Assembly: GCA_964449735.1 (NCBI GenBank)
Contig: CAYUZO010000005.1
Coordinates: forward strand, 6,071-70,070
Reading direction: 5' to 3'
From: an uncultured Ferrimicrobium sp.
Lineage (GTDB): Bacteria; Actinomycetota; Acidimicrobiia; Acidimicrobiales; RAAP-2
Length of the DNA: 64,000 bases
Shown: piece by piece, positions 30,074 to 62,207 of the stretch
Layout: each line of letters opens with the position of its first letter
Position numbering within the stretch: the first letter of the stretch is position 1
Translations under genes and position numbers: made by a program
Notes under the pieces: model-generated
What the model saw: the letters and a program-made list of their open reading frames with translations, nothing else
Databases searched by the model: none
What the model was told of the DNA's origin: nothing

Positions 30074-30991
30074 TCAGGCGCCGAGAAGCGGACTCGCCGA
30101 CAGGACGCGATCGATCTCCTGGGCGATCACCATGTAGCCAGCCTCATTGGGGTGGTTGTCGGGTCCGAAGGGGTCGGTCTCGCACATCCATGTCAGCTGG
30201 CAGATCCGCTCGACGTTGGTGGGGATCTCCCCCACGGGACCCAGTGAGATCGGTGAGGTGTCGCCGGAGTGGAAGGCCCGAAAGACGTCGGCCACCTCGA
30301 AACCCGTGGCGTGGTAGTCCTCGCGCAGCACCTCGTTGAGCCGGCGGATCTGCACCAGTGACCCGCCGGCCAGCGCCGCACCGTGCGGGTCGTCGAGCAG
30401 TCGCGCGAGGAAGGGGTCGTAGGCGGTGAGGCCGACCAGCACCACCCGGGGTCCCGCCGCCGCGGCCAGGCGGGTGAGCACCTGGGGCAGGCTCGCGCGC
30501 ACCGAGGAGAGGCCGGCCGTGACGCAGGCGAGGTCGTAGCGGTGGTGGGCCATGCAGGGCCGCACGGCGTTGAAACCGAGGTCCACCGTGACCACTCCTC
30601 GGTCGCCAGCGTGGTCCCGCAGGAAGCGCACCGCTCGGTCCAGCTGGGTGGTGGGCGGGCGGTAGCAGGCGTCGCCGCCGTCGCGCCCGAGCATGGTGAC
30701 CGGCGTCTCACCCGGGCAGCCGACCTCCGTCGCCTGGAGCGAGAGCCCTCGGTGACCCTCGAGACGCACGAGGTCGTCGACGTAGCCCTGGTCGGTCTGG
30801 CGCGCCGGGCGGGCGGCGACCCCCGTGGGCTGCATGCCCAGCGAGGCCGAACCGCCGATCGCCAGGTAGAAGGTCGACGGGGTCGGACTGGCCGGCGCGG
30901 TGGAGGCGTCGCCGCGGCCGAGCAGGAAGGTGACGGTGAGTAGACCCAACAGGGCGAGCAGCAGTGCGCCGCGCGTGACCGTCTTGAGCAT
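30074..30991 (-). CDS. secreted SGNH/GDSL-like hydrolase
   Basis: A signal peptide (MLKTVTRGALLLALLGLLTVTFLL), a block-I-like AIGGSASLG, and a C-terminal DPFGPDNHPN (DxxH) are present. The alternative ATG at 31015 and the ORF-track GTG at 31195 were rejected. Confidence 0.75.
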   Translation of the reverse strand: MLKTVTRGALLLALLGLLTVTFLLGRGDASTAPASPTPSTFYLAIGGSASLGMQPTGVAARPARQTDQGYVDDLVRLEGHRGLSLQATEVGCPGETPVTMLGRDGGDACYRPPTTQLDRAVRFLRDHAGDRGVVTVDLGFNAVRPCMAHHRYDLACVTAGLSSVRASLPQVLTRLAAAAGPRVVLVGLTAYDPFLARLLDDPHGAALAGGSLVQIRRLNEVLREDYHATGFEVADVFRAFHSGDTSPISLGPVGEIPTNVERICQLTWMCETDPFGPDNHPNEAGYMVIAQEIDRVLSASPLLGA

Positions 30992-52651: not shown

Positions 52652-53608
52652 CTAGAGCGAAGAGGGAAGCTGCCCGGCGATCGTCTCGGCGATCTTCTGA
52701 TAGCCGGACTTGTTCGGGTGGTCGTCAGGCCCGAAGGGGTGGGGGGCACACATCCACGTCCAGGCGCAGACGTTGGCGACGTTCTGGGGCACGGTGCCGA
52801 AGGTGCCGGTCGAGACCATGGTCGTGTTCGTGCTCTCGAACACCTGAGGCATGTCGGCCACCGCGATGCCGGCCGCACGGTAGAGGGTGGACAGGGTCGA
52901 GTTCATCTCCGTCATCAACCCCAGACTTTGGGTGGCCAGTGCCGGCCCCTGGCCGCCCTTGGTGTAGCGCATGAGGAAGGGGTCGTCGTAGAGGAGGCCC
53001 ACGAAGTGGACGTGGGCTCCAGCGGCGGCCTTGAGCTGGGTGAGGACCTTGGGGAGGTCGGCTCGGACGTGGGCAATCCCTTGGTTGACGCACGAGACCG
53101 CGAGGGGCACGACCCACAGGCAGGGCCTGATGTCGTTGAAGCCGAGGTCGATGGAGACGACCCCGGCCTCAGCCTTGTGGGAATCGAGGAAGGCGACCGC
53201 CTGAGTGAGCTGGGTCTGAGGCAGCGGGTAGCAGTGGTCGCCTGAGAACATGGACTCCGCGGTCTCGCCCATGCAGCCGATCTTGGTGAGCTGGAGGGTG
53301 ATGCCCTTGGCGGCCTCGACGCGCACGAGGTCGTCGCCGTAGCCCCAGGGCGTGAAGGCCCCGTTGTGCTTGGGGTCACCGGTCGGCTGGACGCCGAGCG
53401 AGGCCGAGGCACCGATGTCAAGGTAGAAGCCGGTGCGGATCCCCGACGTGAGGGACTGGGCCGACGACGCCACGGTCGTCGGAGGGGCGACCGCCGACGA
53501 GCTCGACGGCGTGATGAACAACCCTGTCACCAGGACAAATGCGCCAACGACGGCCACGGCGACGCCGGCGACGGGATGTGGGGTTCGTACTCTGACGCGA
53601 CGGGGCAC
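52652..53608 (-). CDS. secreted SGNH/GDSL-like hydrolase (paralog of 30074..30991)
   Basis: A signal peptide, DIGASASLG, and the C-terminal CAWTWMCAPHPFGPDDHPN are present. This compares with CQLTWMCETDPFGPDNHPN in the paralog. Confidence 0.78.
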   Translation of the reverse strand: MPRRVRVRTPHPVAGVAVAVVGAFVLVTGLFITPSSSSAVAPPTTVASSAQSLTSGIRTGFYLDIGASASLGVQPTGDPKHNGAFTPWGYGDDLVRVEAAKGITLQLTKIGCMGETAESMFSGDHCYPLPQTQLTQAVAFLDSHKAEAGVVSIDLGFNDIRPCLWVVPLAVSCVNQGIAHVRADLPKVLTQLKAAAGAHVHFVGLLYDDPFLMRYTKGGQGPALATQSLGLMTEMNSTLSTLYRAAGIAVADMPQVFESTNTTMVSTGTFGTVPQNVANVCAWTWMCAPHPFGPDDHPNKSGYQKIAETIAGQLPSSL

Positions 53609-53873
53609 CTGGCAACCTCCCGGGGCCCTTCCAGGCTAGCCAGGTCACTGGCCGAGTGGGCCGAGAAGGACCGGGGTCGCCCTTAGGTTTCTTCTGCCGG
53701 CGGCGGGATGGAAAGGGCCCCTAATCAGGGCGCTAACTGTCCGTAACGTCGTAACAGTTTCGTGACATTCGGCCACGAATTGGCCTAGTTTCCCTACTTT
53801 GGAGGGAGGAGGAGGGGCTCGCCGCCGAGGGATCTGGGGGAAGAGGAACTCATCCCACGCGAGCCGCACAACC

Positions 53874-54683
53874 ATGACGCTTGAGAACCCCCAGACCCCC
53901 ATCGAGTTGCCCGCGCGCGAGGTCAAGCCACGGTCGAGCGGACTGACCATGGTGATCGACGGCGGGCTGCCTACCGGCTACTTCACGGACCTCATCGAGA
54001 GCCACGCCGACCACATCGACTTCATCAAGTTCGGCTGGGGGACCTCGCTCGTCACTCGCCAGATCCGCCAGAAGGTGAAGGTCCTCGACGCCGAGGGTGT
54101 CGACTACTACTTCGGCGGGACCCTCCTCGAGAAGTTCCTCATCCAAGGCCGATTTGACGAGTTCCGCACCTTCCTCGCCTCGCTCGGCGCCCGCGTCGTC
54201 GAGGTCAGCAACGGCACGGCCCATCTCAGCGACGAGGACAAGGCGACCTACGTGGCCGAGCTCGCGAAGGACTTCCGGGTGGTCAGCGAGGTTGGCTCGA
54301 AGGACCAGGCGAACTCGGACACGATGGCCCCTTACAAGTGGATCGAGTGCATCCGCGCCGACATCGAGGCGGGCGCCGAGCTGGTGACCCTGGAGACCCG
54401 CGAGTCCGGGCGGGGTGGGATCTGCCGCTCCAACGGGGAGCTTCGCTACGGGTTGATCGAGGAGATCCTGACCTCGGGAGTGGAGCCCGATCGCCTGATC
54501 TTCGAGGCGCCTTCGACCGAGTTGCAGAACTACTTCGCCAAGCGGGTCGGACCCAACGTCAACCTGGGGAACATCGCGGCGACCGACGTCATCGGAGTCG
54601 AGACGATCCGCCTTGGTCTGCGTTCGGAGACCCTCTACTCCTTCGAGCCCGAGGAGCGTCAGGGTACCGTGGGTGGCCTGTGA
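53874..54683 (+). CDS. comA: (2R)-phospho-3-sulfolactate synthase (ComA family)
   Basis: The 269-aa protein starts at ATG 53874. ComA-family blocks are KPRSSGLTMVIDGG, DFIKFGWGTS and VEVSNGT, along a TIM-barrel length pattern. Confidence 0.8.
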   Translation: MTLENPQTPIELPAREVKPRSSGLTMVIDGGLPTGYFTDLIESHADHIDFIKFGWGTSLVTRQIRQKVKVLDAEGVDYYFGGTLLEKFLIQGRFDEFRTFLASLGARVVEVSNGTAHLSDEDKATYVAELAKDFRVVSEVGSKDQANSDTMAPYKWIECIRADIEAGAELVTLETRESGRGGICRSNGELRYGLIEEILTSGVEPDRLIFEAPSTELQNYFAKRVGPNVNLGNIAATDVIGVETIRLGLRSETLYSFEPEERQGTVGGL

Positions 54684-55096
54684 GAGAGAGCAGGGACGTC
54701 TTCCACCTGGCCATCCCGACCTGGGACCTCGATGAGGCGGTCGCCTTCTACGTCGGGACCCTCGGGTGCAAGCTCGCACGACGCTACGAGGACCGGATCA
54801 CGCTCGACTTCTTCGGCGACCAACTGGTCTGCCACCTCTCCCCCGCCCCCGAGCCCCGCCCCACCTTGGCCGACCTCACGACGATGTACCCGCGCCACTT
54901 CGGAGTTACCTTCCGTGACGCGGAGGACTTCGCTCGCCTCCACCGCCTCTGCCAGGAGCGCGGCGTCCCCTTCTACTCCGACGTGGCCCGCCGCTTCGAG
55001 GGCCGCATCGAGGTCCACTCGACCTTCGTGATCGCCGACCCGGCACTGAACCTGCTCGAGTTCAAGCACTACGACGATCCGCGGATGATGTACTAG
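54680..55096 (+). CDS. VOC-superfamily (glyoxalase/dioxygenase fold) protein
   Basis: The 138-aa protein starts at GTG 54680, overlapping the comA stop as GTGA. It has FHLAIPTWDLDEAVAFYVGTLGC and HFGVTF blocks. Confidence 0.7.
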   Translation: MRESRDVFHLAIPTWDLDEAVAFYVGTLGCKLARRYEDRITLDFFGDQLVCHLSPAPEPRPTLADLTTMYPRHFGVTFRDAEDFARLHRLCQERGVPFYSDVARRFEGRIEVHSTFVIADPALNLLEFKHYDDPRMMY

Positions 55097-55100
55097 CCCC

Positions 55101-56564
55101 GTGTCCGACCTCGCCACCCTCTCTGAGCTCGTCGCGAGGCAGTCGGCCCGAGGTGATGATCCCTATCTGCTCGAGGTCCGCGGCCCGCGCGTGCTCGCCT
55201 ACGCGGACCTCCCGCGAGTTCTCGGCGCCTGGGCGGCCCGCCTGGAGCTGGCGGGAGTCGCTCCCGGCGAGAGGGTCGCCCTGTCCCTGTCGGACCCCCT
55301 CGACTTGGCGGAGGCGCTGCTCGGCACCATCGCCTCGGGTCGATGGGCCGCGCCGCTCGACCCCGGTCTCGAGGCCGGCCACCCCGGCGCCGCGCGCGCG
55401 CGCGCGACCCGCTTGGAGGCCGCGGCGCTGGTGACGGGGGTCGATGAGCCGATCGAGCGGCTGTCGACGTCGGCGACGACTCGAGAGGGTGGGGGCATCG
55501 TCCTGGCCTCCTCCGGGACTACGGGGACCCCGAAGGTCATGGCCCTCTCCACCCGGCAGTTGCTCGCGACCGCCGAGCTGATCAGCCACCACCATCGCCT
55601 CAGTCCCGCGGACCGCGGATTCAACCCCTTGCCGCTCTTCCACATCAACGCCGAGGTCGTCGGCCTGCTTTCGACCTTGGTCGCGGGAGCCTCTCTCGCC
55701 CTCGACGAGCGCTTCCACCGGACCCGCTTCTGGTCCGAGGTCGAGCGCCTCGGTGCGACGTGGGTCAACGCGGTGCCCGCGATCATCGCGCGCCTCGCCG
55801 TGCTGCAGCCCGGCGAGCAAGTGCCCGGCGGCGTCCGCTTCGTCCGCTCCGCCTCCGCCCCGCTGGCCCCGGCCCTACTCGAGGAGTTCGAGGCCACCAC
55901 CGGTCTCGCCGTGATCGAGACCTACGGGATGACCGAGGCCGCGAGCCAGATCTGCGCGAACCCACTCGAGGGACCCCGCAAGGCCGGGTCGGTCGGGCGC
56001 CCAGTGGGCGTGCGGGTGCGGGTGCGCACCGGCACCGCCGACGCCGGACCGGGTGAGGTCGGTGAGGTGGAGATCTGCGGACCCACGGTGATCGACCACT
56101 ACGAGTCACCGGGCTACGAGTCGCGCTTCAGCCCCGATGGATGGTTGCACACGGGCGACCTCGGCTACCTCGACGAGGAGGGCTACCTCTTCCTCGCGGG
56201 ACGCTCGGACGACGTGATCAACCGCGGCGGCGAGAAGATCCTGCCCCGCGAGATCGAGGAGGTCCTCCTCGGTGCGCCTGAGGTCGCCGGCGCGGCGGTC
56301 GTCGGTCGAGCCGACCAGGTCTTCGGACAGGTGCCGGTCGCCTACGTCGAGCTCGACGGAATCGGGCCGGACAGCGCGATCGAGGTCGTCGCCCCGATCT
56401 TGAAGGACCTTCGCGAGCGCCTCGTCGATGCCTTCCCCCGCACCAGGAGACCGGCCAGCGTGAACGTCGTGTCGGCCCTGCCCTCGCACGTCAACGGCAA
56501 GATCCGCCGGTCCGAGTTGCGTGACACCCTGCCGGACCCTCTCTTCAGCGAAGAGGTCGGCTAG
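55101..56564 (+). CDS. ANL-superfamily adenylate-forming enzyme (AMP-dependent synthetase/ligase)
   Basis: SSGTTGTPK, YGMTE, TGDLGY and GRSDDVINRGGEKI are present in a 487-aa ORF. Confidence 0.9.
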   Translation: MSDLATLSELVARQSARGDDPYLLEVRGPRVLAYADLPRVLGAWAARLELAGVAPGERVALSLSDPLDLAEALLGTIASGRWAAPLDPGLEAGHPGAARARATRLEAAALVTGVDEPIERLSTSATTREGGGIVLASSGTTGTPKVMALSTRQLLATAELISHHHRLSPADRGFNPLPLFHINAEVVGLLSTLVAGASLALDERFHRTRFWSEVERLGATWVNAVPAIIARLAVLQPGEQVPGGVRFVRSASAPLAPALLEEFEATTGLAVIETYGMTEAASQICANPLEGPRKAGSVGRPVGVRVRVRTGTADAGPGEVGEVEICGPTVIDHYESPGYESRFSPDGWLHTGDLGYLDEEGYLFLAGRSDDVINRGGEKILPREIEEVLLGAPEVAGAAVVGRADQVFGQVPVAYVELDGIGPDSAIEVVAPILKDLRERLVDAFPRTRRPASVNVVSALPSHVNGKIRRSELRDTLPDPLFSEEVG

Positions 56565-56568
56565 TCCC

Positions 56569-57822
56569 ATGAGTCAGGAAGCCTCCGCCGGAGGCACCCG
56601 CAAGCGGCTCGACCACGTCGACGCGATGCGCCCCATCAAGCAGGCGGCGGTCATCTCGACCCACGCCATCATCTTCCTCGCCCCGGGCTACGCCGGTCTG
56701 GCGCGCACCAACATGCTCATCTTCACCCACTTCTCCCGAGAGGCCTTCCTCTTCGTGTCGGCCTGCATGCTCGCCTACAGCTACCGCGACTCCGATCGGG
56801 TCGTGCTCGGCCACTACGCGAAGCGCCGGTGGTGGGCGGTGGGCGTCCCCTACCTCGTCTGGACCGCGATCTACTTCCTCTACCTCGCCCTCGTCCCGCG
56901 CAGCGGCTTCCCCTTCTACGGCGTCAACGGCGCGATGATCTGGTCCTGGCACGGGCTGTGGCGACTCACGCATCTCGCCCTCGTGGGCTACTACCACCTG
57001 TACTACCTGCTCGTCATCGCCGAGTTCTATGTCCTGTTCCCGTGGCTGGTGCGCTGGGTGAAGTCCTTGCCCACGCCGGCCCAGGTGCGCCTGGTCGTGG
57101 CGACGCTGGCCTTCCAGATCCTCTACGACTCCCTCTGGGCCGACTTCTACAACGCGCTGGCTCGCATCCACCTGGCCTCCACCGGCAACCAGGGGTTCTG
57201 GGAGACCCGAATCGTCACCTCCTACGCCTTCTACCTCGTCGCGGGGGTGGTCGTGGCCCTGCACCTCGACGTGGTGCACGACTGGATCGTGCGCCACCGG
57301 GCGCTCATCCTGCTGGGCACGCCGCTCGCGGGTCTCGGGGCGGTGGCCCTCAACTACTGGAACCCGCAGTCGGATCTGCTGCGCCACCTGCTGGTGCCGG
57401 GGATCAACCCCTTCTCGATGGTGGTGATCCCCTACAACGTGGGGGCGATTCTGTGCGTCTACCTGCTCGGGGTCTTCCTCGTCAGCCCGAGGCGCTCCTG
57501 GCGCACCCGGGCCGCCACCGCGTCGGGATCGGACAACGCCTACGGCATCTACCTGACCCAGCTGATCTGGATCCCCATCGTCGGGAGGCTCCTGCCCGTG
57601 CACCACCCGCCGATCCCCTGGCCCCTGTTCACTCTGGGGTGCATGGTGATCGTGTACCTCACCGGCTTCCTCTTCTCGGCTCTGGTGGCCCGCACGCCGG
57701 TGGCCCGCGCGGTCGTCGGCCGCTCGCCCACCAGCTGGGCCAGCCTCTGGCCGCGCCTGCGCCTAGTCCCCTCCACGGCCGGCGCCCCCGACGGCCCCCT
57801 CGACCTCACCGCGAGCGACTGA
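56569..57822 (+). CDS. membrane acyltransferase_3 (OafA/YrhL-type O-acyltransferase)
   Basis: It starts at Met17 of the ORF-track frame. It has RLDHVDAMRPIKQAAV (the Arg/His motif of acyltransferase_3) and ~10 TM segments. Confidence 0.82.
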   Translation: MSQEASAGGTRKRLDHVDAMRPIKQAAVISTHAIIFLAPGYAGLARTNMLIFTHFSREAFLFVSACMLAYSYRDSDRVVLGHYAKRRWWAVGVPYLVWTAIYFLYLALVPRSGFPFYGVNGAMIWSWHGLWRLTHLALVGYYHLYYLLVIAEFYVLFPWLVRWVKSLPTPAQVRLVVATLAFQILYDSLWADFYNALARIHLASTGNQGFWETRIVTSYAFYLVAGVVVALHLDVVHDWIVRHRALILLGTPLAGLGAVALNYWNPQSDLLRHLLVPGINPFSMVVIPYNVGAILCVYLLGVFLVSPRRSWRTRAATASGSDNAYGIYLTQLIWIPIVGRLLPVHHPPIPWPLFTLGCMVIVYLTGFLFSALVARTPVARAVVGRSPTSWASLWPRLRLVPSTAGAPDGPLDLTASD

Positions 57823-57823
57823 C

Positions 57824-58387
57824 CTACTCGGGGGTGTGCAGCTCCCAGGTGGTCGCGTTGTGGACCGACCCCCAGGGCGAGCCGGTGACGAGGGGGCGAC
57901 CCTCGGCCCAGGCGAGCAGCGCCCGCACCGTCCCGCCGTGGGTCACCAGGAGCAGGCGGCGCTCCCCGTGGGTGGCGAGCAGGCCCTGCGCGCAGGCGGC
58001 CGCGCGCCGGTAGAGCTCGCCCACTGACTCACCGCCCTCGGGGGCGGCTCCATCGTCGAGGACCCGTCCCTCACCGAGCCCCACGAGCTCGGGGGTCGCC
58101 GCCTCGAGGGGACCGCGCTCGAGCAACCCGTAGTGACGCTCGCGCAGGCCCGGCTCGAAGAGGACCTCGACGCCCAGCGCGGCGGCACAGATCTCGGCGC
58201 TCTGGCGCGTGCGGGTGAGATCGGAGCTGACGATCAGCTCGATGCCGGCCCCGACGAGGCCCTCCGCGGCGCGCTCGACCTGGGCGCGGCCCTCGGGGGT
58301 GAGGACCGCCTCGTCGTCCTGGCCCTGGACCCGGCGAGCCCGGTTCCAGGTGGACTCACCGTGGCGCAGCAGCCGCCAGAGGGCCAT
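57824..58387 (-). CDS. histidine phosphatase family protein (phosphoglycerate-mutase-like)
   Basis: The RHGES motif (LLRHGESTWN) is present in a 187-aa ORF. Confidence 0.88.
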   Translation of the reverse strand: MALWRLLRHGESTWNRARRVQGQDDEAVLTPEGRAQVERAAEGLVGAGIELIVSSDLTRTRQSAEICAAALGVEVLFEPGLRERHYGLLERGPLEAATPELVGLGEGRVLDDGAAPEGGESVGELYRRAAACAQGLLATHGERRLLLVTHGGTVRALLAWAEGRPLVTGSPWGSVHNATTWELHTPE

Positions 58388-59151
58388 CAGTCCATGAAGG
58401 CGCCGCCGTTGACCGACAGCGCCTCACCGGTGATGAAGGAGGCCTCTTCGCTCGCGAGGAAGGCCACCGCTCGCGCCACGTCCTCGGGAGTCTCGAGGCG
58501 CCCGAGGGGGGTGTCGCCGATCCACAGCTGGCGCACCGACTCCGGGTCGGTCCCGCGCAGCGTCGCCTCCCAGACCAGCTCGCGGTCCTGCATCGGCGTC
58601 GCCACGAAGCCGGGGCAGACGCTGTTCACCCGAATCCCGTGGGGTGCGAGCTCGAAGGCCATCGCCTGGGTCAACCCGAGGACGGCGAACTTGGAGGCCA
58701 CGTAGTCGGCGAGGAAGGGGACCCGGCCCTGCTTGGCCGCCATCGAGGCGGTATTGACGATCACGCCGCCTCGACCCAGAGCGATCATGGCCCGCGCCGC
58801 CGACTGGCCGGTGAAGAGGATGCCGAGGGTGTTGACCTCGAGGGTGCGCCGCGCGGCGGCCGGGGTGATCTCGACGAAGCGGGCCATCGAGGAGATGCCG
58901 GCGTTCGCCGCCACCACGTCCAGTCGGCCGCGGTCGGCGACCACGGCGTCCACCAACTGGTCGACCGCCGCGGGGTCGGTCACGTCCAGTCGATGGGCGC
59001 GCGCGCCCTCGAGGCGCTGGGCGACTGCGCGGGCCGCGTCGAGGTCGACATCGGTGACCTCGACCAGATGGCCGCGCTCGCTCAGGGTGGTCGCGATGGC
59101 TGCGCCGATGCCCGAGCCGGCTCCGGTGACGATGGCGACGGATGGGGTCAC
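58387..59151 (-). CDS. short-chain dehydrogenase/reductase (sugar-alcohol dehydrogenase-like)
   Basis: VTGAGSGIG, NAG and YVASK blocks are present in a 254-aa ORF. Confidence 0.9.
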   Translation of the reverse strand: MTPSVAIVTGAGSGIGAAIATTLSERGHLVEVTDVDLDAARAVAQRLEGARAHRLDVTDPAAVDQLVDAVVADRGRLDVVAANAGISSMARFVEITPAAARRTLEVNTLGILFTGQSAARAMIALGRGGVIVNTASMAAKQGRVPFLADYVASKFAVLGLTQAMAFELAPHGIRVNSVCPGFVATPMQDRELVWEATLRGTDPESVRQLWIGDTPLGRLETPEDVARAVAFLASEEASFITGEALSVNGGAFMD

Positions 59152-60629
59152 GACGAGCTCCTCGCGAGTCGATGGGATAGGGGGGTGGTGGCTACGGTGA
59201 GGGCCTGGAAGTCACGGTATCGCTCGGCGTAGAGGGCCTGTCGAGCCGGGTCGGGGTCGATCACCTCGCCATCGCGCAGCGCCCCCACCGGGTAGGTCCA
59301 GTCCTCGATCGAGCCGACGCCGATGCCGGCCAGCACGGCGGCGGCGAAGCTGGCGCCGGGATGGTCGATGATCGAGGTGAGCGGGGTCGCCAGCACGTCG
59401 GCGAGGATCTCGCGCCACAGTCGGCTGCGGGATCCGCCATTGGTGACCACGCAGCGGCGCACCTCGAGCCCGCGCTCGGCGAAGACCTCGACGTGGGAGC
59501 GAAAGCCGTAGGCGATGGCCTCCAGGAAGGCCCGGTGCAGGTCGGCCCGCGTCGTGCCGAGGTGCAGCCCCAGGACGGCGCCTCGCAGATCGGGGTCGTG
59601 CAGTGGCGTCTTCTCGCCGAGGAAGTAGGGCAGCGCCAGCAGGGCCCCCGGGGTGGCCGCCCGGGCCGCCGCGTCGAGGTCGCTCAGCTCCACTCCCCCA
59701 AAGAGGGCCTGCTCCCAGCGCAGGAGTGATCCCGAGGTGGCCATGCAGCCGTTGGGCAGCCACTTGCCGGGCACCGGGTGGGCGTCGAGGTAGAGCCGCT
59801 CGTCGACCAGGGGCTCGTCGGCCACGGCCAGGATGTCGCCCGCGCCACCCAGCTTCACGAGGCAGTCGCCGGGCGCCACCAGCCCCGCGCCGTAGGCGCT
59901 CAGCACGTGGTCGGCCCCGCCCACCACGATCGCCGCCCCCACGGGCAGCCCGGTCGCCGCCGCGGCCGCGGCGCTGATCGAGCCGACGACGTCGCCGGGC
60001 TGGCGCACCGCGAGCAGCGCCGGCCACTCGACCATCGTGGCCTCGCGCACCTCGGAGAGCTCGCGCAGGTCCAGGCTGAACAGCCCACTCTCGATCGCCC
60101 AGTTGGCCTCGACGTGGGGCTCCGCCCCGAGGCGGGCCGCCATCCAGTCGTAGGAGCCGCGCACCGAGCGGGTGGCGGCCCAGACGGCGGGCTCGTGACG
60201 GGCCAACCAGAGGGCGGTCGGGGCGACCGACTGTTGGGAGAGGACCGAGCCGGTCAGGCCCAGCAGGTCCACCCCAGCGAGGGCCGCGCGCAACTCCTCC
60301 ACCTCGACCGCCGCCCGCGCGTCGTTCTGCAAGATGGCCGGGCGCAGGGGGTTGCCTTCGGCGTCGCACAGGACCACCGCCGGCACCATGCCCGAGACGG
60401 CGACGGCCGCGATCGCCTCGGCGCCGACCCCGGCCTCGTCCAACAGCAGCGGCACCGAGTCGATCAGGGCCTGCCACCACTCACGCGGGTCGGCCTCAGC
60501 CCACCCGGGCCGGGCGCTGGTGAGGGCGACCGGTCGGGTCGCGCGCGCCACCAGCCCGCGCGCCGGGTCGACGAGCGCCGTCTTGACCCCCGAGGAGCCG
60601 AGGTCGACCCCGAGGAGCAGCTCAGCCAC
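59148..60629 (-). CDS. FGGY-family carbohydrate kinase
   Basis: The N-terminal LLGVDLGSSGVKTALVD and the C-terminal FGGY_C pattern (NGGSRSRLWREILADV) are present in a 493-aa ORF. Confidence 0.9.
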   Translation of the reverse strand: MAELLLGVDLGSSGVKTALVDPARGLVARATRPVALTSARPGWAEADPREWWQALIDSVPLLLDEAGVGAEAIAAVAVSGMVPAVVLCDAEGNPLRPAILQNDARAAVEVEELRAALAGVDLLGLTGSVLSQQSVAPTALWLARHEPAVWAATRSVRGSYDWMAARLGAEPHVEANWAIESGLFSLDLRELSEVREATMVEWPALLAVRQPGDVVGSISAAAAAATGLPVGAAIVVGGADHVLSAYGAGLVAPGDCLVKLGGAGDILAVADEPLVDERLYLDAHPVPGKWLPNGCMATSGSLLRWEQALFGGVELSDLDAAARAATPGALLALPYFLGEKTPLHDPDLRGAVLGLHLGTTRADLHRAFLEAIAYGFRSHVEVFAERGLEVRRCVVTNGGSRSRLWREILADVLATPLTSIIDHPGASFAAAVLAGIGVGSIEDWTYPVGALRDGEVIDPDPARQALYAERYRDFQALTVATTPLSHRLARSSS

Positions 60630-61425
60630 CGCGGGCCGCTCCCACGAAGCGCTTCACGCGCTCGGGGTCCACCGGGTTCCAGGTGTAGCCGTCGATCTTG
60701 AGGTCACTGCCGACGATGCAGCCGTCGGCGTACTCGAGGTAGGTGGCGATCGTGCCCGCCTTGGCCCCGGTGTTGAGTAGGACCGGGATCTCCGGGTCCA
60801 GCGCCTCGCGCACCGAGGCGATCGTCGACAGCTCCGGCTCGGACCCGGCCATCGGGCCCGAGACCAGGATCACGTCAGCCAGGGAGGAGACGACCGTCGA
60901 GCGCGCCATCTGGGCCGGCGTCCGCGCGCCGACCGAGGAGGCGAACTCCGGGGTGACGTTGGCGAAGACGGCCAGGTCGTCGCGTCCGAGGTTGCGCCGG
61001 TTGCGCAGCAGGGCCGCCGCGTCGGGCGCCCACAGCCCCATGTCGGACTCCCAGGTGCCGGTGACCACCTCGCGCATGAAGCTGGCGCCGGTCGCGACCG
61101 CCACTGCCAGCGCGCACTGGGCGTCCCAGAGGTAGTCGACGCCAAAGGGGCGGTCGTCGGGGCGGCACTCGGTCACGACGCGGGCCATCACCGCGGCCGC
61201 GTCAAGCGGGGCCTGCAACTGGTAGGGACGGTCCCCTTCGTTGCAGAACAGCACCGCGTCGAAGCCCCCCTCGAGCAGGAGCTCGAGATCGCGCTTGACG
61301 TGATCGACCAGACCGGTAACACCCTCGACGTGGTCGTAGAGGGGCGTGCCCGGTAGCGGTGGCACGTGGGCCATGGCGATGAGGGGCTTGGCCACCTCGG
61401 GGAAGATCAGACGGAAACGGCTCAC
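60622..61425 (-). CDS. BtpA/SgcQ-family TIM-barrel protein
   Basis: The 267-aa ORF has the N-terminal LIAMAHVPPLPGTPLYD block characteristic of the family. Confidence 0.75.
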   Translation of the reverse strand: MSRFRLIFPEVAKPLIAMAHVPPLPGTPLYDHVEGVTGLVDHVKRDLELLLEGGFDAVLFCNEGDRPYQLQAPLDAAAVMARVVTECRPDDRPFGVDYLWDAQCALAVAVATGASFMREVVTGTWESDMGLWAPDAAALLRNRRNLGRDDLAVFANVTPEFASSVGARTPAQMARSTVVSSLADVILVSGPMAGSEPELSTIASVREALDPEIPVLLNTGAKAGTIATYLEYADGCIVGSDLKIDGYTWNPVDPERVKRFVGAARGG

Positions 61426-62207
61426 GGGGCCTCCTCACTGGCGAAGGGTTCGACATTCAGCACGTCCACGCCGAGGCGGCGCGCCGCCACCACCACGCGG
61501 TGGCCGGGATGGGCGTCGGTCACGATCAGGTCGATCTCCCCCAAGGGCGTCACGCGGGCGAAGGCCCCGCGGCCCAACTTGGTGGAGTCGGCCGCGACGA
61601 TGGCGCGCCGCGCCGAGCGCAGGGCGGCTCGCTTGACCATCGCGTCATCGGGGTTGTACTCGCTCACGCCGCTCTCGTCGACGCCCGCGGCGCCCAGCAC
61701 GGCGACGTCACAGCGCAGGTCCTCGTACCACCGGCTGGCCGTCTCGCCGACCAGGCTCAACTCGCCCGGGCGGACCTCGCCGCCGGTGAGGTAGGTGCGG
61801 AAGCCGCCGCGCGCGCCGAGCTCGGCGGCGATGAGGACGGAGTTCGTGACGACGGTGATCCCGGCGGTCTCGTCGAGGGCTCGGGCCACGGCGAGCGTCG
61901 TCGTGCCCACGTCGAGGGCCACGGTCTCGCCCGGCCCGATCAGCGCCGCCACCGCTGCCCCGATGCGCCGTTTGGCGTCGGCCTGATCCGAGGCCCGTTG
62001 GATCACGGGGGGCTCGTAGGCCCGGCTCTCCACGGCGACCGCTCCGCGACGGGCCCGGCGCACCAGCCCCTCCATCTCGAGCTGGTCGAGGTCGCGCCGG
62101 ATGGTCATCTCCGAGGTCCCGTAGGCCGCAGCCAAATCGGGAATCGTGGCCTCGCCGTCGCGACGGAGCCGCTCGGCGATGGCGGCGCGACGCTGCTTGA
62201 CGTTCAC
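61422..62207 (-). CDS. DeoR-family transcriptional regulator
   Basis: The HTH IPDLAAAYGTSEMTIRRDLDQLEMEGLV and a DeoR C-terminal sensor domain are present. Confidence 0.9.
   Translation of the reverse strand: MNVKQRRAAIAERLRRDGEATIPDLAAAYGTSEMTIRRDLDQLEMEGLVRRARRGAVAVESRAYEPPVIQRASDQADAKRRIGAAVAALIGPGETVALDVGTTTLAVARALDETAGITVVTNSVLIAAELGARGGFRTYLTGGEVRPGELSLVGETASRWYEDLRCDVAVLGAAGVDESGVSEYNPDDAMVKRAALRSARRAIVAADSTKLGRGAFARVTPLGEIDLIVTDAHPGHRVVVAARRLGVDVLNVEPFASEEAP

What the first reader, a model, noticed from the sequence alone, without database searches (positions are those of the whole stretch)
53874..57822. comA (phosphosulfolactate synthase)-VOC-adenylating enzyme-membrane O-acyltransferase operon without other coenzyme M genes
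Four plus-strand genes are packed with a 4-nt overlap and two 4-nt gaps. They are a ComA-family enzyme (known chemistry: sulfite addition to PEP giving phosphosulfolactate), a small VOC-fold protein, an ANL adenylate-forming enzyme, and a 10-TM acyltransferase_3 protein. Acyltransferase_3 is the family that O-acylates extracytoplasmic glycans and lipids. No comB, comC or comDE is present. The only phosphatase nearby is a histidine phosphatase convergent at 57824..58387, which belongs to another operon. The combination suggests that a sulfolactate-derived acid is activated as an acyl-adenylate and transferred to an envelope polymer or lipid. That would be a sulfonate-decoration or sulfonolipid pathway I do not recognise as described. 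The operon abuts the lower-GC accessory patch.
Basis: inference. Interest (0 to 1): 0.62.

Follow-up and report, generated by a model that had tools for sequence, protein, structure and literature searches.

The report
Predicted sulfonate-acyl cell-surface decoration genes
An uncultured soil/peat actinobacterium (Acidimicrobiales) carries a widely conserved gene set that probably makes a small sulfonate-bearing acid from phosphoenolpyruvate and sulfite, activates it, and passes it through a membrane acyltransferase to something outside the cell; I found no paper describing such a surface modification, and none of it has been tested at the bench.

Summary
The four genes are real and sit exactly as described. 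ComA is at 53874-54683, the VOC protein at 54680-55096, the ANL ligase at 55101-56564 and the AT3 acyltransferase at 56569-57822. They join by a GTGA overlap and two 4-nt gaps.

The set is conserved. ComA sits directly upstream of VOC in 78 of 80 related Acidimicrobiales loci, and ANL+AT3 follow in 64 of 67 loci with enough flank. VOC and AT3 are present or absent together among 41 relatives.

- The convergent histidine phosphatase (57824-58387) belongs to the conserved set. Its orthologue lies beside the cluster in 61 of 62 loci.
- An exported SGNH/GDSL protein (52652-53608) is a recurrent partner.

The same gene families cluster in Alicyclobacillus (Bacillota). In Chloroflexota-type contigs ANL and AT3 are fused into one protein beside ComA, once with a PAPS reductase and a TauE/SafE permease.

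The genome lacks comB, comC and comDE, so this is not the archaeal coenzyme M route; bacterial Xcb partners are absent from the cluster.

The best reading is PEP + sulfite → phosphosulfolactate → sulfolactate → (VOC) probably 2-sulfoacetate → CoA thioester → AT3/SGNH → an envelope acceptor. The closest published precedent is the misNOPQ cassette of misaugamycin. The VOC reaction and the acceptor are unknown. All of this is inferred.

The parts
52652..53608 (-). Exported SGNH/GDSL-like protein (318 aa), divergent from comA. It is the candidate extracytoplasmic partner of AT3.
   Evidence: Pfam Lipase_GDSL_2 and Lipase_GDSL match weakly and below their cut-offs. There is an N-terminal TM or signal anchor. 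In 42 homologues the conserved residues are G66-A-S68, G156-F-N158-D, H297-P and six Cys. A homologue lies within 5.5 kb of the cluster in 29 of 62 loci, and a GDSL gene precedes ComA in Alicyclobacillus acidoterrestris. The own genome has four paralogues, so the link is weaker than for the other genes.
53609..53873 (.). 265-nt divergent intergenic region upstream of comA; presumed promoter region.
   Evidence: Position only. No sigma-70-like promoter and no Rfam element was detected.
53874..54683 (+). ComA-family phosphosulfolactate synthase (269 aa).
   Evidence: PF02679 at 269 bits. TIGR03849 scores 226.9, below its equivalog cut-off of 280. It is 45% identical to the solved Bacillus-type PSL synthase 1U83 and 40% to the archaeal ComA structure. 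Of the 80 cluster-conserved residues, 51 are identical in both, including all the conserved charged ones. Single copy in the genome.
54680..55096 (+). Small VOC-fold metalloprotein (138 aa) of the 3RRI family. It is the unknown middle step, proposed to convert the C3 sulfonate into 2-sulfoacetate.
   Evidence: PF00903. About 63-65% identical to PDB 3RRI, an unassigned Alicyclobacillus protein. The next structural neighbours are FosA, FosB and FosX (E about 4e-9). H9, H73 and E127 are invariant, along with many Arg and Lys. It is the most conserved gene of the set, at 64-76% identity across the 80 loci.
55101..56564 (+). ANL adenylate-forming ligase (487 aa); probable CoA ligase for a very small di-anionic acid.
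   Evidence: AMP-binding and AMP-binding_C domains. All core motifs are conserved, including K467. The best solved relatives are oxalate-CoA ligases (5IE0, E 3e-63), then MenE, then malonyl-CoA synthetases. It is fused to AT3 in P0246-P0249 and P0313.
56569..57822 (+). Acyl_transf_3 integral membrane acyltransferase (417 aa, about 10 TM).
   Evidence: PF01757 at 86 bits. The R21-X10-H32 motif, R57, S64 and R87 are conserved. Single copy. Its presence and absence track VOC among 41 relatives. Relatives are fused to ANL, or to a C-terminal alpha/beta-hydrolase esterase domain.
57824..58387 (-). Histidine-phosphatase-superfamily (branch 1) enzyme (187 aa); probable phosphosulfolactate phosphatase, a non-homologous stand-in for ComB.
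   Evidence: PF00300, E 3e-40. R8-H9-G10, R59, E83 and H150 are conserved in 71 homologues. It is the clear orthologue of the cluster-linked phosphatases of relatives, at 124-164 bits against 61 or less for paralogues. It is adjacent in 61 of 62 loci, in three different positions. In this window its start overlaps the stop of an SDR gene belonging to another operon.

Best explanation
The unit has six genes, not four: ComA, VOC, ANL and AT3, plus the convergent histidine phosphatase and the divergent exported SGNH protein.

Proposed mechanism:
1. ComA adds sulfite to PEP to give (2R)-phospho-3-sulfolactate. The sulfite would come from the genome's own assimilatory pathway.
2. The histidine phosphatase removes the phosphate to give sulfolactate. 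It replaces the absent ComB.
3. The FosA-like VOC metalloenzyme converts this C3 sulfonate into the acid that is actually used. This is most likely 2-sulfoacetate, by an oxidative C1-C2 cleavage.
4. The ANL enzyme makes the acyl-adenylate and then, probably, the CoA thioester.
5. AT3 takes the acyl group across the membrane. The exported SGNH protein, or AT3 itself, esterifies it onto a hydroxyl of an extracytoplasmic acceptor, probably a wall or surface glycan. This would give a charge that does not depend on pH.

Shown here: the family assignments, intact catalytic motifs, gene order, co-occurrence and the fusions. Inferred: every chemical step, the identity of the acyl group and the acceptor.
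For: Family and motif evidence:
- ComA keeps the residues shared by both solved PSL synthases.
- The phosphatase keeps RHG, R59, E83 and H150. AT3 keeps R-X10-H. ANL keeps all core motifs.
- The nearest solved relatives of ANL activate oxalate and malonate. Sulfoacetate is close to malonate in size and charge.
- The nearest characterised structural neighbours of VOC are the Fos enzymes. By my own knowledge, these bind a small phosphonate at a His-His-Glu metal site.

Linkage:
- ComA lies directly upstream of VOC in 78 of 80 loci. ANL+AT3 follow in 64 of 67. The phosphatase is adjacent in 61 of 62.
- VOC and AT3 coincide in 10 of the 11 relatives that have VOC. The eleventh cluster is cut by a contig end. 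All 29 other genomes lack both.
- The same families cluster in Alicyclobacillus acidoterrestris: ANL, MFS and AT3 divergent from GDSL, ComA and VOC.
- ANL and AT3 are fused in one polypeptide next to ComA. P0246-P0249 carry PF00501+PF13193+PF01757. For P0246, both halves align to the window's ANL and AT3 over their full lengths. P0313 is a fusion from a separate cluster.
- One fusion locus continues ComA, PAPS reductase, TauE/SafE permease, which ties the module to sulfite.
- AT3 relatives fused to esterase domains, together with the exported SGNH neighbour, suggest the two-domain architecture of OatA and OafA (own knowledge).

The own genome has PAPS-reductase-family genes and a sulfite reductase.

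Published precedent: misNOPQ (ACP, ligase, ComA, glyoxalase) is predicted to supply the 2-sulfoacetyl group, and sulfite feeding favours the sulfonated product (PMC9136965).
Against:
- The VOC reaction is a guess. The Fos enzymes are not oxygenases, and no small VOC is known to cleave a 2-hydroxy or 2-oxo acid.
- I could not reach the mis sequences, so orthology to MisO, MisP and MisQ is untested.
- The mis cassette uses an ACP and has no phosphatase. The Alicyclobacillus locus also has no adjacent phosphatase.
- SGNH is adjacent in only about half of the loci, and the own genome has four paralogues.
- In this window the phosphatase is transcribed with another operon.
- AT3 enzymes can also acylate small molecules, so an envelope glycan is not assured.
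- ComA scores below the archaeal equivalog cut-off.
Confidence: 0.55

Rival explanations
1. The system has the same architecture, but the transferred group is 3-sulfolactyl (C3). VOC would be an epimerase, an isomerase or an accessory enzyme, not a C-C cleaving enzyme.
For: Sulfolactate is the direct product of ComA plus the phosphatase. VOC enzymes with enolate chemistry (methylmalonyl-CoA epimerase, glyoxalase I) act on 2-substituted acyl thioesters (own knowledge), and glyoxalase I appears among the fold neighbours. No oxidoreductase is conserved in the set.
Against: The only chemically characterised product linked to a ComA+VOC+ligase cassette is 2-sulfoacetyl. VOC is the most conserved gene of the set, and it pairs with ComA even where ANL and AT3 are missing (L046, L057, L074). 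That suggests it makes the free acid rather than editing a thioester.
Confidence: 0.2
2. The acyl group goes to a lipid or a small secreted metabolite rather than to a wall glycan. This would be a sulfonolipid or a natural-product tailoring step, or the AT3 product is released.
For: AT3 enzymes also acylate macrolide-type small molecules (own knowledge). The precedent, misaugamycin, is a natural product. Alicyclobacillus has an MFS transporter between AT3 and ANL. No glycosyltransferase or wall-polymer gene is conserved nearby.
Against: No NRPS, PKS or lipid-synthesis genes lie in or near the cluster in 80 loci. The genomes are small, at 1.4-3 Mb. The exported SGNH or esterase partners and the AT3-esterase fusions fit the pattern of extracytoplasmic glycan O-acylation.
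Confidence: 0.15
3. ComA with the phosphatase and VOC only makes a free cytoplasmic sulfonate, as a solute or a way of disposing of sulfite. This is like sulfolactate in Bacillus spores. ANL and AT3 would be functionally separate neighbours.
For: Three loci keep ComA, VOC and the phosphatase without ANL and AT3. The closest solved ComA is the Bacillus type.
Against: ANL+AT3 follow in 64 of 67 loci. They co-vary with VOC among relatives. They recur with ComA and VOC in two other phyla and are fused next to ComA.
Confidence: 0.06
4. The genes make coenzyme M (by the archaeal or the bacterial Xcb route), or they break down sulfoacetate or sulfolactate.
For: ComA is the first enzyme of both coenzyme M routes (PMC9457059). 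Sulfoacetate-CoA ligases are known from catabolism (the paper listed, PMC10413351; SauT from own knowledge).
Against: The whole genome has no ComB, ComC or ComDE. The cluster has no aspartase/fumarase-type XcbC or XcbD and no PLP enzyme XcbE. The ComA copies of alkene degraders are only 38-41% identical. The conserved set has no desulfonating enzyme and no sulfoacetaldehyde dehydrogenase.
Confidence: 0.03

Closest known systems
misNOPQ cassette of the misaugamycin (type V glycopeptide) gene cluster, Streptomyces (PMC9136965)
   Same: It combines a phosphosulfolactate synthase, a glyoxalase-family (VOC) protein and an acyl-CoA-ligase-type ANL enzyme in one operon. It is predicted to supply a 2-sulfoacetyl group, and sulfite feeding raises the sulfonated product.
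   Different: It hands the acyl group to an ACP for N-acylation of a non-ribosomal peptide. It has no AT3, no SGNH and no phosphatase. Its pathway is itself only predicted. I could not test sequence orthology to the window proteins.
AT3-SGNH O-acyltransferases of surface glycans (OatA, OafA/OafB) and the AT3 succinyltransferases ExoH and OpgC (own knowledge)
   Same: A membrane AT3 domain with the TM1 Arg-X10-His motif sits beside an extracytoplasmic serine-esterase-fold partner. ExoH and OpgC show that AT3 enzymes can transfer an anionic acyl group (succinyl).
   Different: Those enzymes use central-metabolite donors (acetyl-CoA, succinyl-CoA) and need no dedicated donor pathway. Here a donor-synthesis module is built in, SGNH is a separate protein, and the acceptor is unknown.
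Dlt D-alanylation system (DltA ANL enzyme, DltC carrier, DltB MBOAT, DltD SGNH-like) (own knowledge)
   Same: The logic matches: a cytoplasmic adenylating enzyme, then a polytopic membrane acyltransferase, then an exported SGNH-like protein, which together change surface charge.
   Different: The membrane protein here is AT3, not MBOAT. No carrier-protein gene is present. The group would add negative rather than positive charge.
Coenzyme M biosynthesis (archaeal ComABCDE; bacterial XcbABCDE, PMC9457059) and Bacillus subtilis YitD/YitC sulfolactate synthesis
   Same: The first step is the same ComA-family addition of sulfite to PEP. The nearest solved ComA is the Bacillus type.
   Different: Every downstream gene differs. 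ComB, ComC and ComDE are absent from the genome, and no Xcb-type partners are in the cluster.
PDB 3RRI (Alicyclobacillus acidocaldarius VOC protein, function unassigned) and the FosA/FosB/FosX metalloenzymes
   Same: 3RRI is a full-length orthologue at 63% identity. The Fos enzymes share the fold and align at the His-His-Glu positions.
   Different: 3RRI has no assigned function. The Fos enzymes open an epoxide with a nucleophile, which does not explain a C3-to-C2 conversion.

Membership tests
Phosphosulfolactate synthase (ComA, PF02679) | Sequence match above the curated Pfam cut-off over the full domain | tested here: met
   269.2 bits against a cut-off of 25.2, covering model positions 2-242 of 243.
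Phosphosulfolactate synthase (ComA, PF02679) | Keeps the residues shared by the solved bacterial and archaeal PSL synthases | tested here: met
   51 of 80 cluster-conserved residues are identical in both 1U83 and the archaeal structure. They include D29, D49, K52, E86, E110, E139, K143, E174, R176, E177, E211, E243, R246 and R250.
Phosphosulfolactate synthase (ComA, PF02679) | Reaches the NCBIfam equivalog score for archaeal ComA (TIGR03849) | tested here: not met
   226.9 bits against a cut-off of 280. It belongs to a bacterial clade of the family, not the archaeal equivalog.
Phosphosulfolactate synthase (ComA, PF02679) | Catalyses PEP + sulfite to phosphosulfolactate | not testable with these tools
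   This needs an enzyme assay.
Archaeal coenzyme M pathway | ComB, ComC and ComDE present in the genome | tested here: not met
   No PF04029 and no PF02615. TIGR03845 reaches only 20.9 bits against a cut-off of 148. The positive controls worked.
Bacterial coenzyme M pathway (Xcb) | Aspartase/fumarase-type XcbC and XcbD and the PLP enzyme XcbE encoded next to ComA | tested here: not met
   The cluster genes are VOC, ANL, AT3 and His_Phos_1. The rest of the genome was not searched for these families.
misNOPQ-type sulfoacetyl supply cassette | ComA, VOC and an ANL ligase in one operon | tested here: met
   against the description in PMC9136965.
misNOPQ-type sulfoacetyl supply cassette | A dedicated acyl carrier protein gene | tested here: not met
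   The genes abut with a 4-nt overlap and 4-nt gaps, which leaves no room for a carrier gene. No PP-binding hit was found in the cluster.
misNOPQ-type sulfoacetyl supply cassette | Sequence orthology to MisO, MisP and MisQ | not tested
   The mis sequences could not be reached. The genome-contig scan returned only the 80 best loci, all Acidimicrobiales-type. The paper's supplement is not held.
Acyl_transf_3 membrane acyltransferases | Pfam match above cut-off, polytopic topology, and a TM1 Arg-X10-His motif | tested here: met
   86.4 bits against a cut-off of 31. About 10 hydrophobic segments. R21...H32 is conserved in 60 orthologues.
Two-part AT3 plus SGNH glycan O-acyltransferase (OatA/OafA type) | An extracytoplasmic SGNH domain with catalytic Ser, Gly, Asn and His, linked to the AT3 | tested here: inconclusive
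   The exported SGNH-like protein is adjacent. S68, G111/G114, N158 and H297 are conserved, but the block V Asp is not. The Pfam scores fall below cut-off. Adjacency holds in 29 of 62 loci. Some relatives fuse AT3 to an alpha/beta-hydrolase domain instead.
Two-part AT3 plus SGNH glycan O-acyltransferase (OatA/OafA type) | A known glycan acceptor | not testable with these tools
   No conserved glycan-synthesis neighbour was found.
ANL acyl-CoA ligases | The P-loop, GMTE motif, hinge Asp and C-terminal catalytic Lys | tested here: met
   S138-GTTG-x-PK145, Y275-GMTE, D353 and K467 are conserved in 73 orthologues.
ANL acyl-CoA ligases | The thioester acceptor is CoA rather than a carrier protein or direct transfer | not testable with these tools
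   The nearest solved relatives are CoA ligases. The ANL-AT3 fusions leave direct hand-over possible.
Histidine phosphatase superfamily, branch 1 | The RHG catalytic His, the second His, two Arg and an acidic proton donor | tested here: met
   R8, H9, G10, R59, E83 and H150 are at least 97% conserved in 71 sequences. PF00300, E 3e-40.
VOC superfamily, Fos-like branch | The paired beta-alpha-beta-beta-beta fold with metal ligands at the Fos positions | tested here: met
   The AF2 model has pLDDT 85. Foldseek finds 3RRI at E 1e-20 and FosA/FosB/FosX at E 4e-9 to 1e-7. H9, H73 and E127 are invariant. Their equivalence to FosA H7, H64 and E110 rests on my own alignment from memory.

The most novel reading that the evidence does not exclude
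This is a previously undescribed and widespread envelope modification: ester-linked 2-sulfoacetyl (or sulfolactyl) groups on a wall or surface polymer of Acidimicrobiales, Alicyclobacillaceae and Ktedonobacteria-type bacteria. Many of these come from acidic peat, bog and mine habitats. The modification would give a negative surface charge that survives low pH.

Its donor pathway would contain a new enzyme activity. A FosA-like VOC metalloenzyme would turn sulfolactate, or phosphosulfolactate, into sulfoacetate. A PGAM-type histidine phosphatase would take the role of ComB.
Probability: 0.3. Interest if true: 0.8.

Novelty: new variant of a known kind. Interest (0 to 1): 0.62.

Why it matters
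If the reading is right, three things follow:
- It adds a new kind of bacterial surface chemistry: a sulfonate carried on an acyl ester.
- It gives a function to a very conserved orphan VOC family. That family has a crystal structure (3RRI) but no assigned activity, and about 2,800 sequence clusters.
- It shows ComA-type sulfite fixation feeding something other than coenzyme M or spore sulfolactate.

It would also explain how the 2-sulfoacetyl group of misaugamycin is made. The cassette occurs in at least 570 species genomes. These include culturable Alicyclobacillus, so the question can be tested directly at the bench.

The same cassette has been flagged in at least five other windows of this scan, so the lead is strong, but it is not new within the scan.

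Tried and rejected
- Regulatory signals. The promoter/terminator scan and the Rfam search of 52.5-58.6 kb found nothing meaningful.
- AT3 structure. The AF2 model has pLDDT 70 and gave no PDB fold match better than E 0.28. The sequence search of the PDB also found nothing.
- VOC on plasmids. These are only 36-39% identical singletons in unrelated contexts, so they are uninformative.
- ComA on plasmids. These are the coenzyme M clusters of alkene degraders at 38-41% identity, a different clade.
- Reaching the mis cassette. The single genome-contig scan returned only the 80 best loci, all Acidimicrobiales-type. An even sample of 400 genomes of the phylum held no close VOC. The paper's supplement is not held.
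- Literature. Searches for sulfoacetyl or sulfolactyl surface decoration, and for 3RRI, found nothing relevant.
- Other recurrent neighbours in relatives. These are a CLC channel, a CitMHS/ArsB permease, DUF3048, a Cys/Met PLP enzyme, pirin and GNATs. They look like lineage synteny and are absent beside the window copy.
- Coenzyme M and catabolic readings. Rejected on gene content.

Full report
**1. Observation**

The window has about 70% GC. Its relatives are labelled Acidimicrobiales or Acidimicrobiaceae MAGs from peat, bog and soil. The assembly is 2.16 Mb and 97.8% complete.

- ComA, 53874-54683
- VOC, 54680-55096
- ANL, 55101-56564
- AT3, 56569-57822

The junctions read directly from the sequence are a GTGA overlap, a 4-nt gap 'cccc' and a 4-nt gap 'tccc'. 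One base separates the AT3 stop from the stop of the convergent phosphatase gene.

The Pfam assignments are firm: ComA E 4e-80, Glyoxalase 2e-13, AMP-binding 5e-44 with AMP-binding_C, and Acyl_transf_3 2.5e-24.

**2. Conservation**

Within the genus, the four genes are colinear in ten loci from nine congeners.

A scan of species genomes with a VOC profile found at least 570 genomes with a relative. The best 80 loci were fetched. Counts over those 80 loci:

| Feature | Count |
|---|---|
| ComA directly upstream of VOC | 78 of 80 |
| ANL then AT3 following, where there is room | 64 of 67 |
| Histidine-phosphatase homologue within 4.5 kb | 61 of 62 |
| GDSL/SGNH homologue within 5.5 kb | 29 of 62 |

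The phosphatase takes three positions:
- divergent upstream in 30 loci
- convergent downstream, as in this window, in 21
- on the same strand upstream in 10

The window's phosphatase is the clear orthologue of these. It scores 124-164 bits against 61 or less for paralogues.

Among 41 relatives, ComA is present in 12, VOC in 11 and AT3 in 10. VOC and AT3 coincide in 10 genomes. The one exception has its cluster cut by a contig end. Fourteen of 25 congeners, and all 16 genomes of other families, lack the set. The genes therefore behave as one accessory unit.

Three loci keep only ComA, VOC and the phosphatase. This suggests a core module that makes the acid and a second module (ANL, AT3, SGNH) that uses it.

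**3. Other phyla and fusions**

VOC orthologues occur in three further groups:
- Alicyclobacillus, Ferroacidibacillus and Sulfobacillus, at about 70-80% identity to PDB 3RRI and about 60% to the window protein
- Ktedonobacterales

Alicyclobacillus acidoterrestris has ANL, an MFS transporter and AT3 divergent from GDSL, ComA and VOC.

A Ktedonobacterales contig led to full-length ANL-AT3 fusion proteins of 1166-1268 aa. For P0246, the N-terminal half is 39% identical to the window ANL over its full length, and the AT3 part aligns over the full length of the window AT3. A further clean fusion of 884 aa came from the representative search.

Both fusion loci I looked up have ComA as the next gene. 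One continues with a PAPS reductase and a TauE/SafE-family permease. The other continues with an alpha/beta-hydrolase and VOC. Some AT3 relatives carry a C-terminal alpha/beta-hydrolase or esterase domain.

Three things follow from these fusions and neighbours:
- ANL feeds AT3.
- The module is tied to sulfite.
- This AT3 subfamily works with a serine-esterase-type partner.

**4. The individual proteins**

- **ComA.** It is 45% identical to the solved Bacillus-type PSL synthase (1U83) and 40% to the archaeal enzyme. It keeps 51 of 80 cluster-conserved residues in common with both, including the conserved charged ones. It falls below the archaeal equivalog cut-off.
- **Phosphatase.** It keeps RHG, R59, E83 and H150. 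Enzymes of this branch act on 2-phosphoglycerate-like substrates (own knowledge). Phosphosulfolactate resembles these.
- **VOC.** It is 63% identical to 3RRI, which has no assigned function. Its next structural neighbours are FosA, FosB and FosX, followed by glyoxalase I. H9, H73, E127 and many Arg and Lys are invariant. That fits a metal site binding a small, strongly anionic substrate.
- **ANL.** It is short, at 487 aa. Its nearest solved relatives are oxalate-CoA ligases, then MenE, then malonyl-CoA synthetases.
- **AT3.** It keeps the TM1 Arg-X10-His motif.
- **SGNH protein.** It has an N-terminal anchor, conserved Ser, Asn and His blocks, and six conserved cysteines, as expected for an exported enzyme.

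**5. What it is not**

The genome has no ComB, no ComC and no sulfopyruvate decarboxylase. The cluster has none of the bacterial Xcb partners described in PMC9457059. It does have PAPS-reductase-family genes and a sulfite reductase, so sulfite is available.

**6. Mechanism**

The proposed route is:

PEP + sulfite → phosphosulfolactate (ComA) → sulfolactate (histidine phosphatase) → the transferred acid (VOC) → acyl-adenylate and CoA thioester (ANL) → transfer across the membrane (AT3) → esterification of an outside acceptor, helped by SGNH.

The only chemical anchor is the misaugamycin work. There a cassette of ACP, acyl-CoA ligase, phosphosulfolactate synthase and glyoxalase is predicted to supply a 2-sulfoacetyl group, and sulfite feeding favours the sulfonated congener (PMC9136965). 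I followed this lead from earlier notes of this scan and checked it in the paper.

It favours sulfoacetyl. That requires VOC to perform, or take part in, loss of C1 together with oxidation of C2. I regard this step as the main open question. Sulfolactyl remains a live alternative. The acceptor is unknown.

**7. Local peculiarity**

In this genome the phosphatase start overlaps the stop of an SDR gene. It lies at the end of a DeoR-BtpA-FGGY-SDR operon on the minus strand.

The cluster lies beside a lower-GC patch.

**8. Novelty and score**

Within the searchable library, sulfoacetyl-CoA appears only in catabolic or incidental contexts, never surface decoration. I found no paper on a sulfoacetyl or sulfolactyl surface decoration.

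The parts are known families in a new combination with a new predicted donor, so I class it as a new variant of a known kind. Interest is moderate to high. The cassette is widespread, sharply defined and testable in a culturable organism. However, every chemical step is inferred, and the same cassette has already been reported from other windows of this scan.

Noticed in passing
window 57824-62207, minus strand: DeoR regulator (61422-62207), BtpA-family protein (60622-61425), FGGY kinase (59148-60629), SDR (58387-59151) and the histidine phosphatase (57824-58387) form one tightly overlapping minus-strand string. The cluster-linked phosphatase has become the last gene of what looks like a sugar or polyol operon.
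   Followed up: partly
L018 4665-7639; L020 3708-8102: Some congeners have a second, solo ComA paralogue with no VOC, ANL or AT3. It sits near a PLP-dependent decarboxylase (Pyridoxal_deC). In L018 there is also a histidine phosphatase; in L020 a glycerate kinase and a GDSL protein. This may be a different sulfonate route, for example of the cysteate or taurine type.
   Followed up: partly
L111 6953-10407 (Sulfobacillus-type contig): The VOC orthologue here has no ComA next to it. It sits between a D-2-hydroxyacid dehydrogenase and a MurJ/MatE-type flippase. This hints that the VOC substrate is a 2-hydroxy or 2-oxo acid and that there is a link to envelope export.
   Followed up: no
P0246-P0249; L116 7001-10807: The ANL-AT3 fusion proteins carry an extra C-terminal region of about 250 aa that matches HTH_23-type DNA-binding domains. 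That is odd for a membrane enzyme.
   Followed up: no
L116 10895-13483: The gene order is ComA, then a PAPS reductase, then a TauE/SafE-family permease, directly downstream of an ANL-AT3 fusion. This looks like a self-contained sulfite supply and sulfonate or sulfite transport arrangement.
   Followed up: partly
L027-L106 (for example L084 11263-12657; L080 1833-2876): A CLC-type chloride channel (27 loci) and a CitMHS/ArsB-type anion permease (24 loci) recur beside the cluster in relatives but not in this window. Many carriers of the cassette come from acidic habitats (peat, bog, palsa, Alicyclobacillus, Sulfobacillus). No statistical test of this habitat bias was possible.
   Followed up: no
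window about 30092-30871, minus strand: A second GDSL/SGNH paralogue, 48% identical to the cluster-adjacent one, lies elsewhere in the window. Two more are on other contigs.
   Followed up: no
L026 7012-7763 (G018:C136): The cluster-linked ComA of one congener is split into two overlapping frames (residues 9-186 and 188-259). This is either a frameshifted pseudogene or an assembly error.
   Followed up: no
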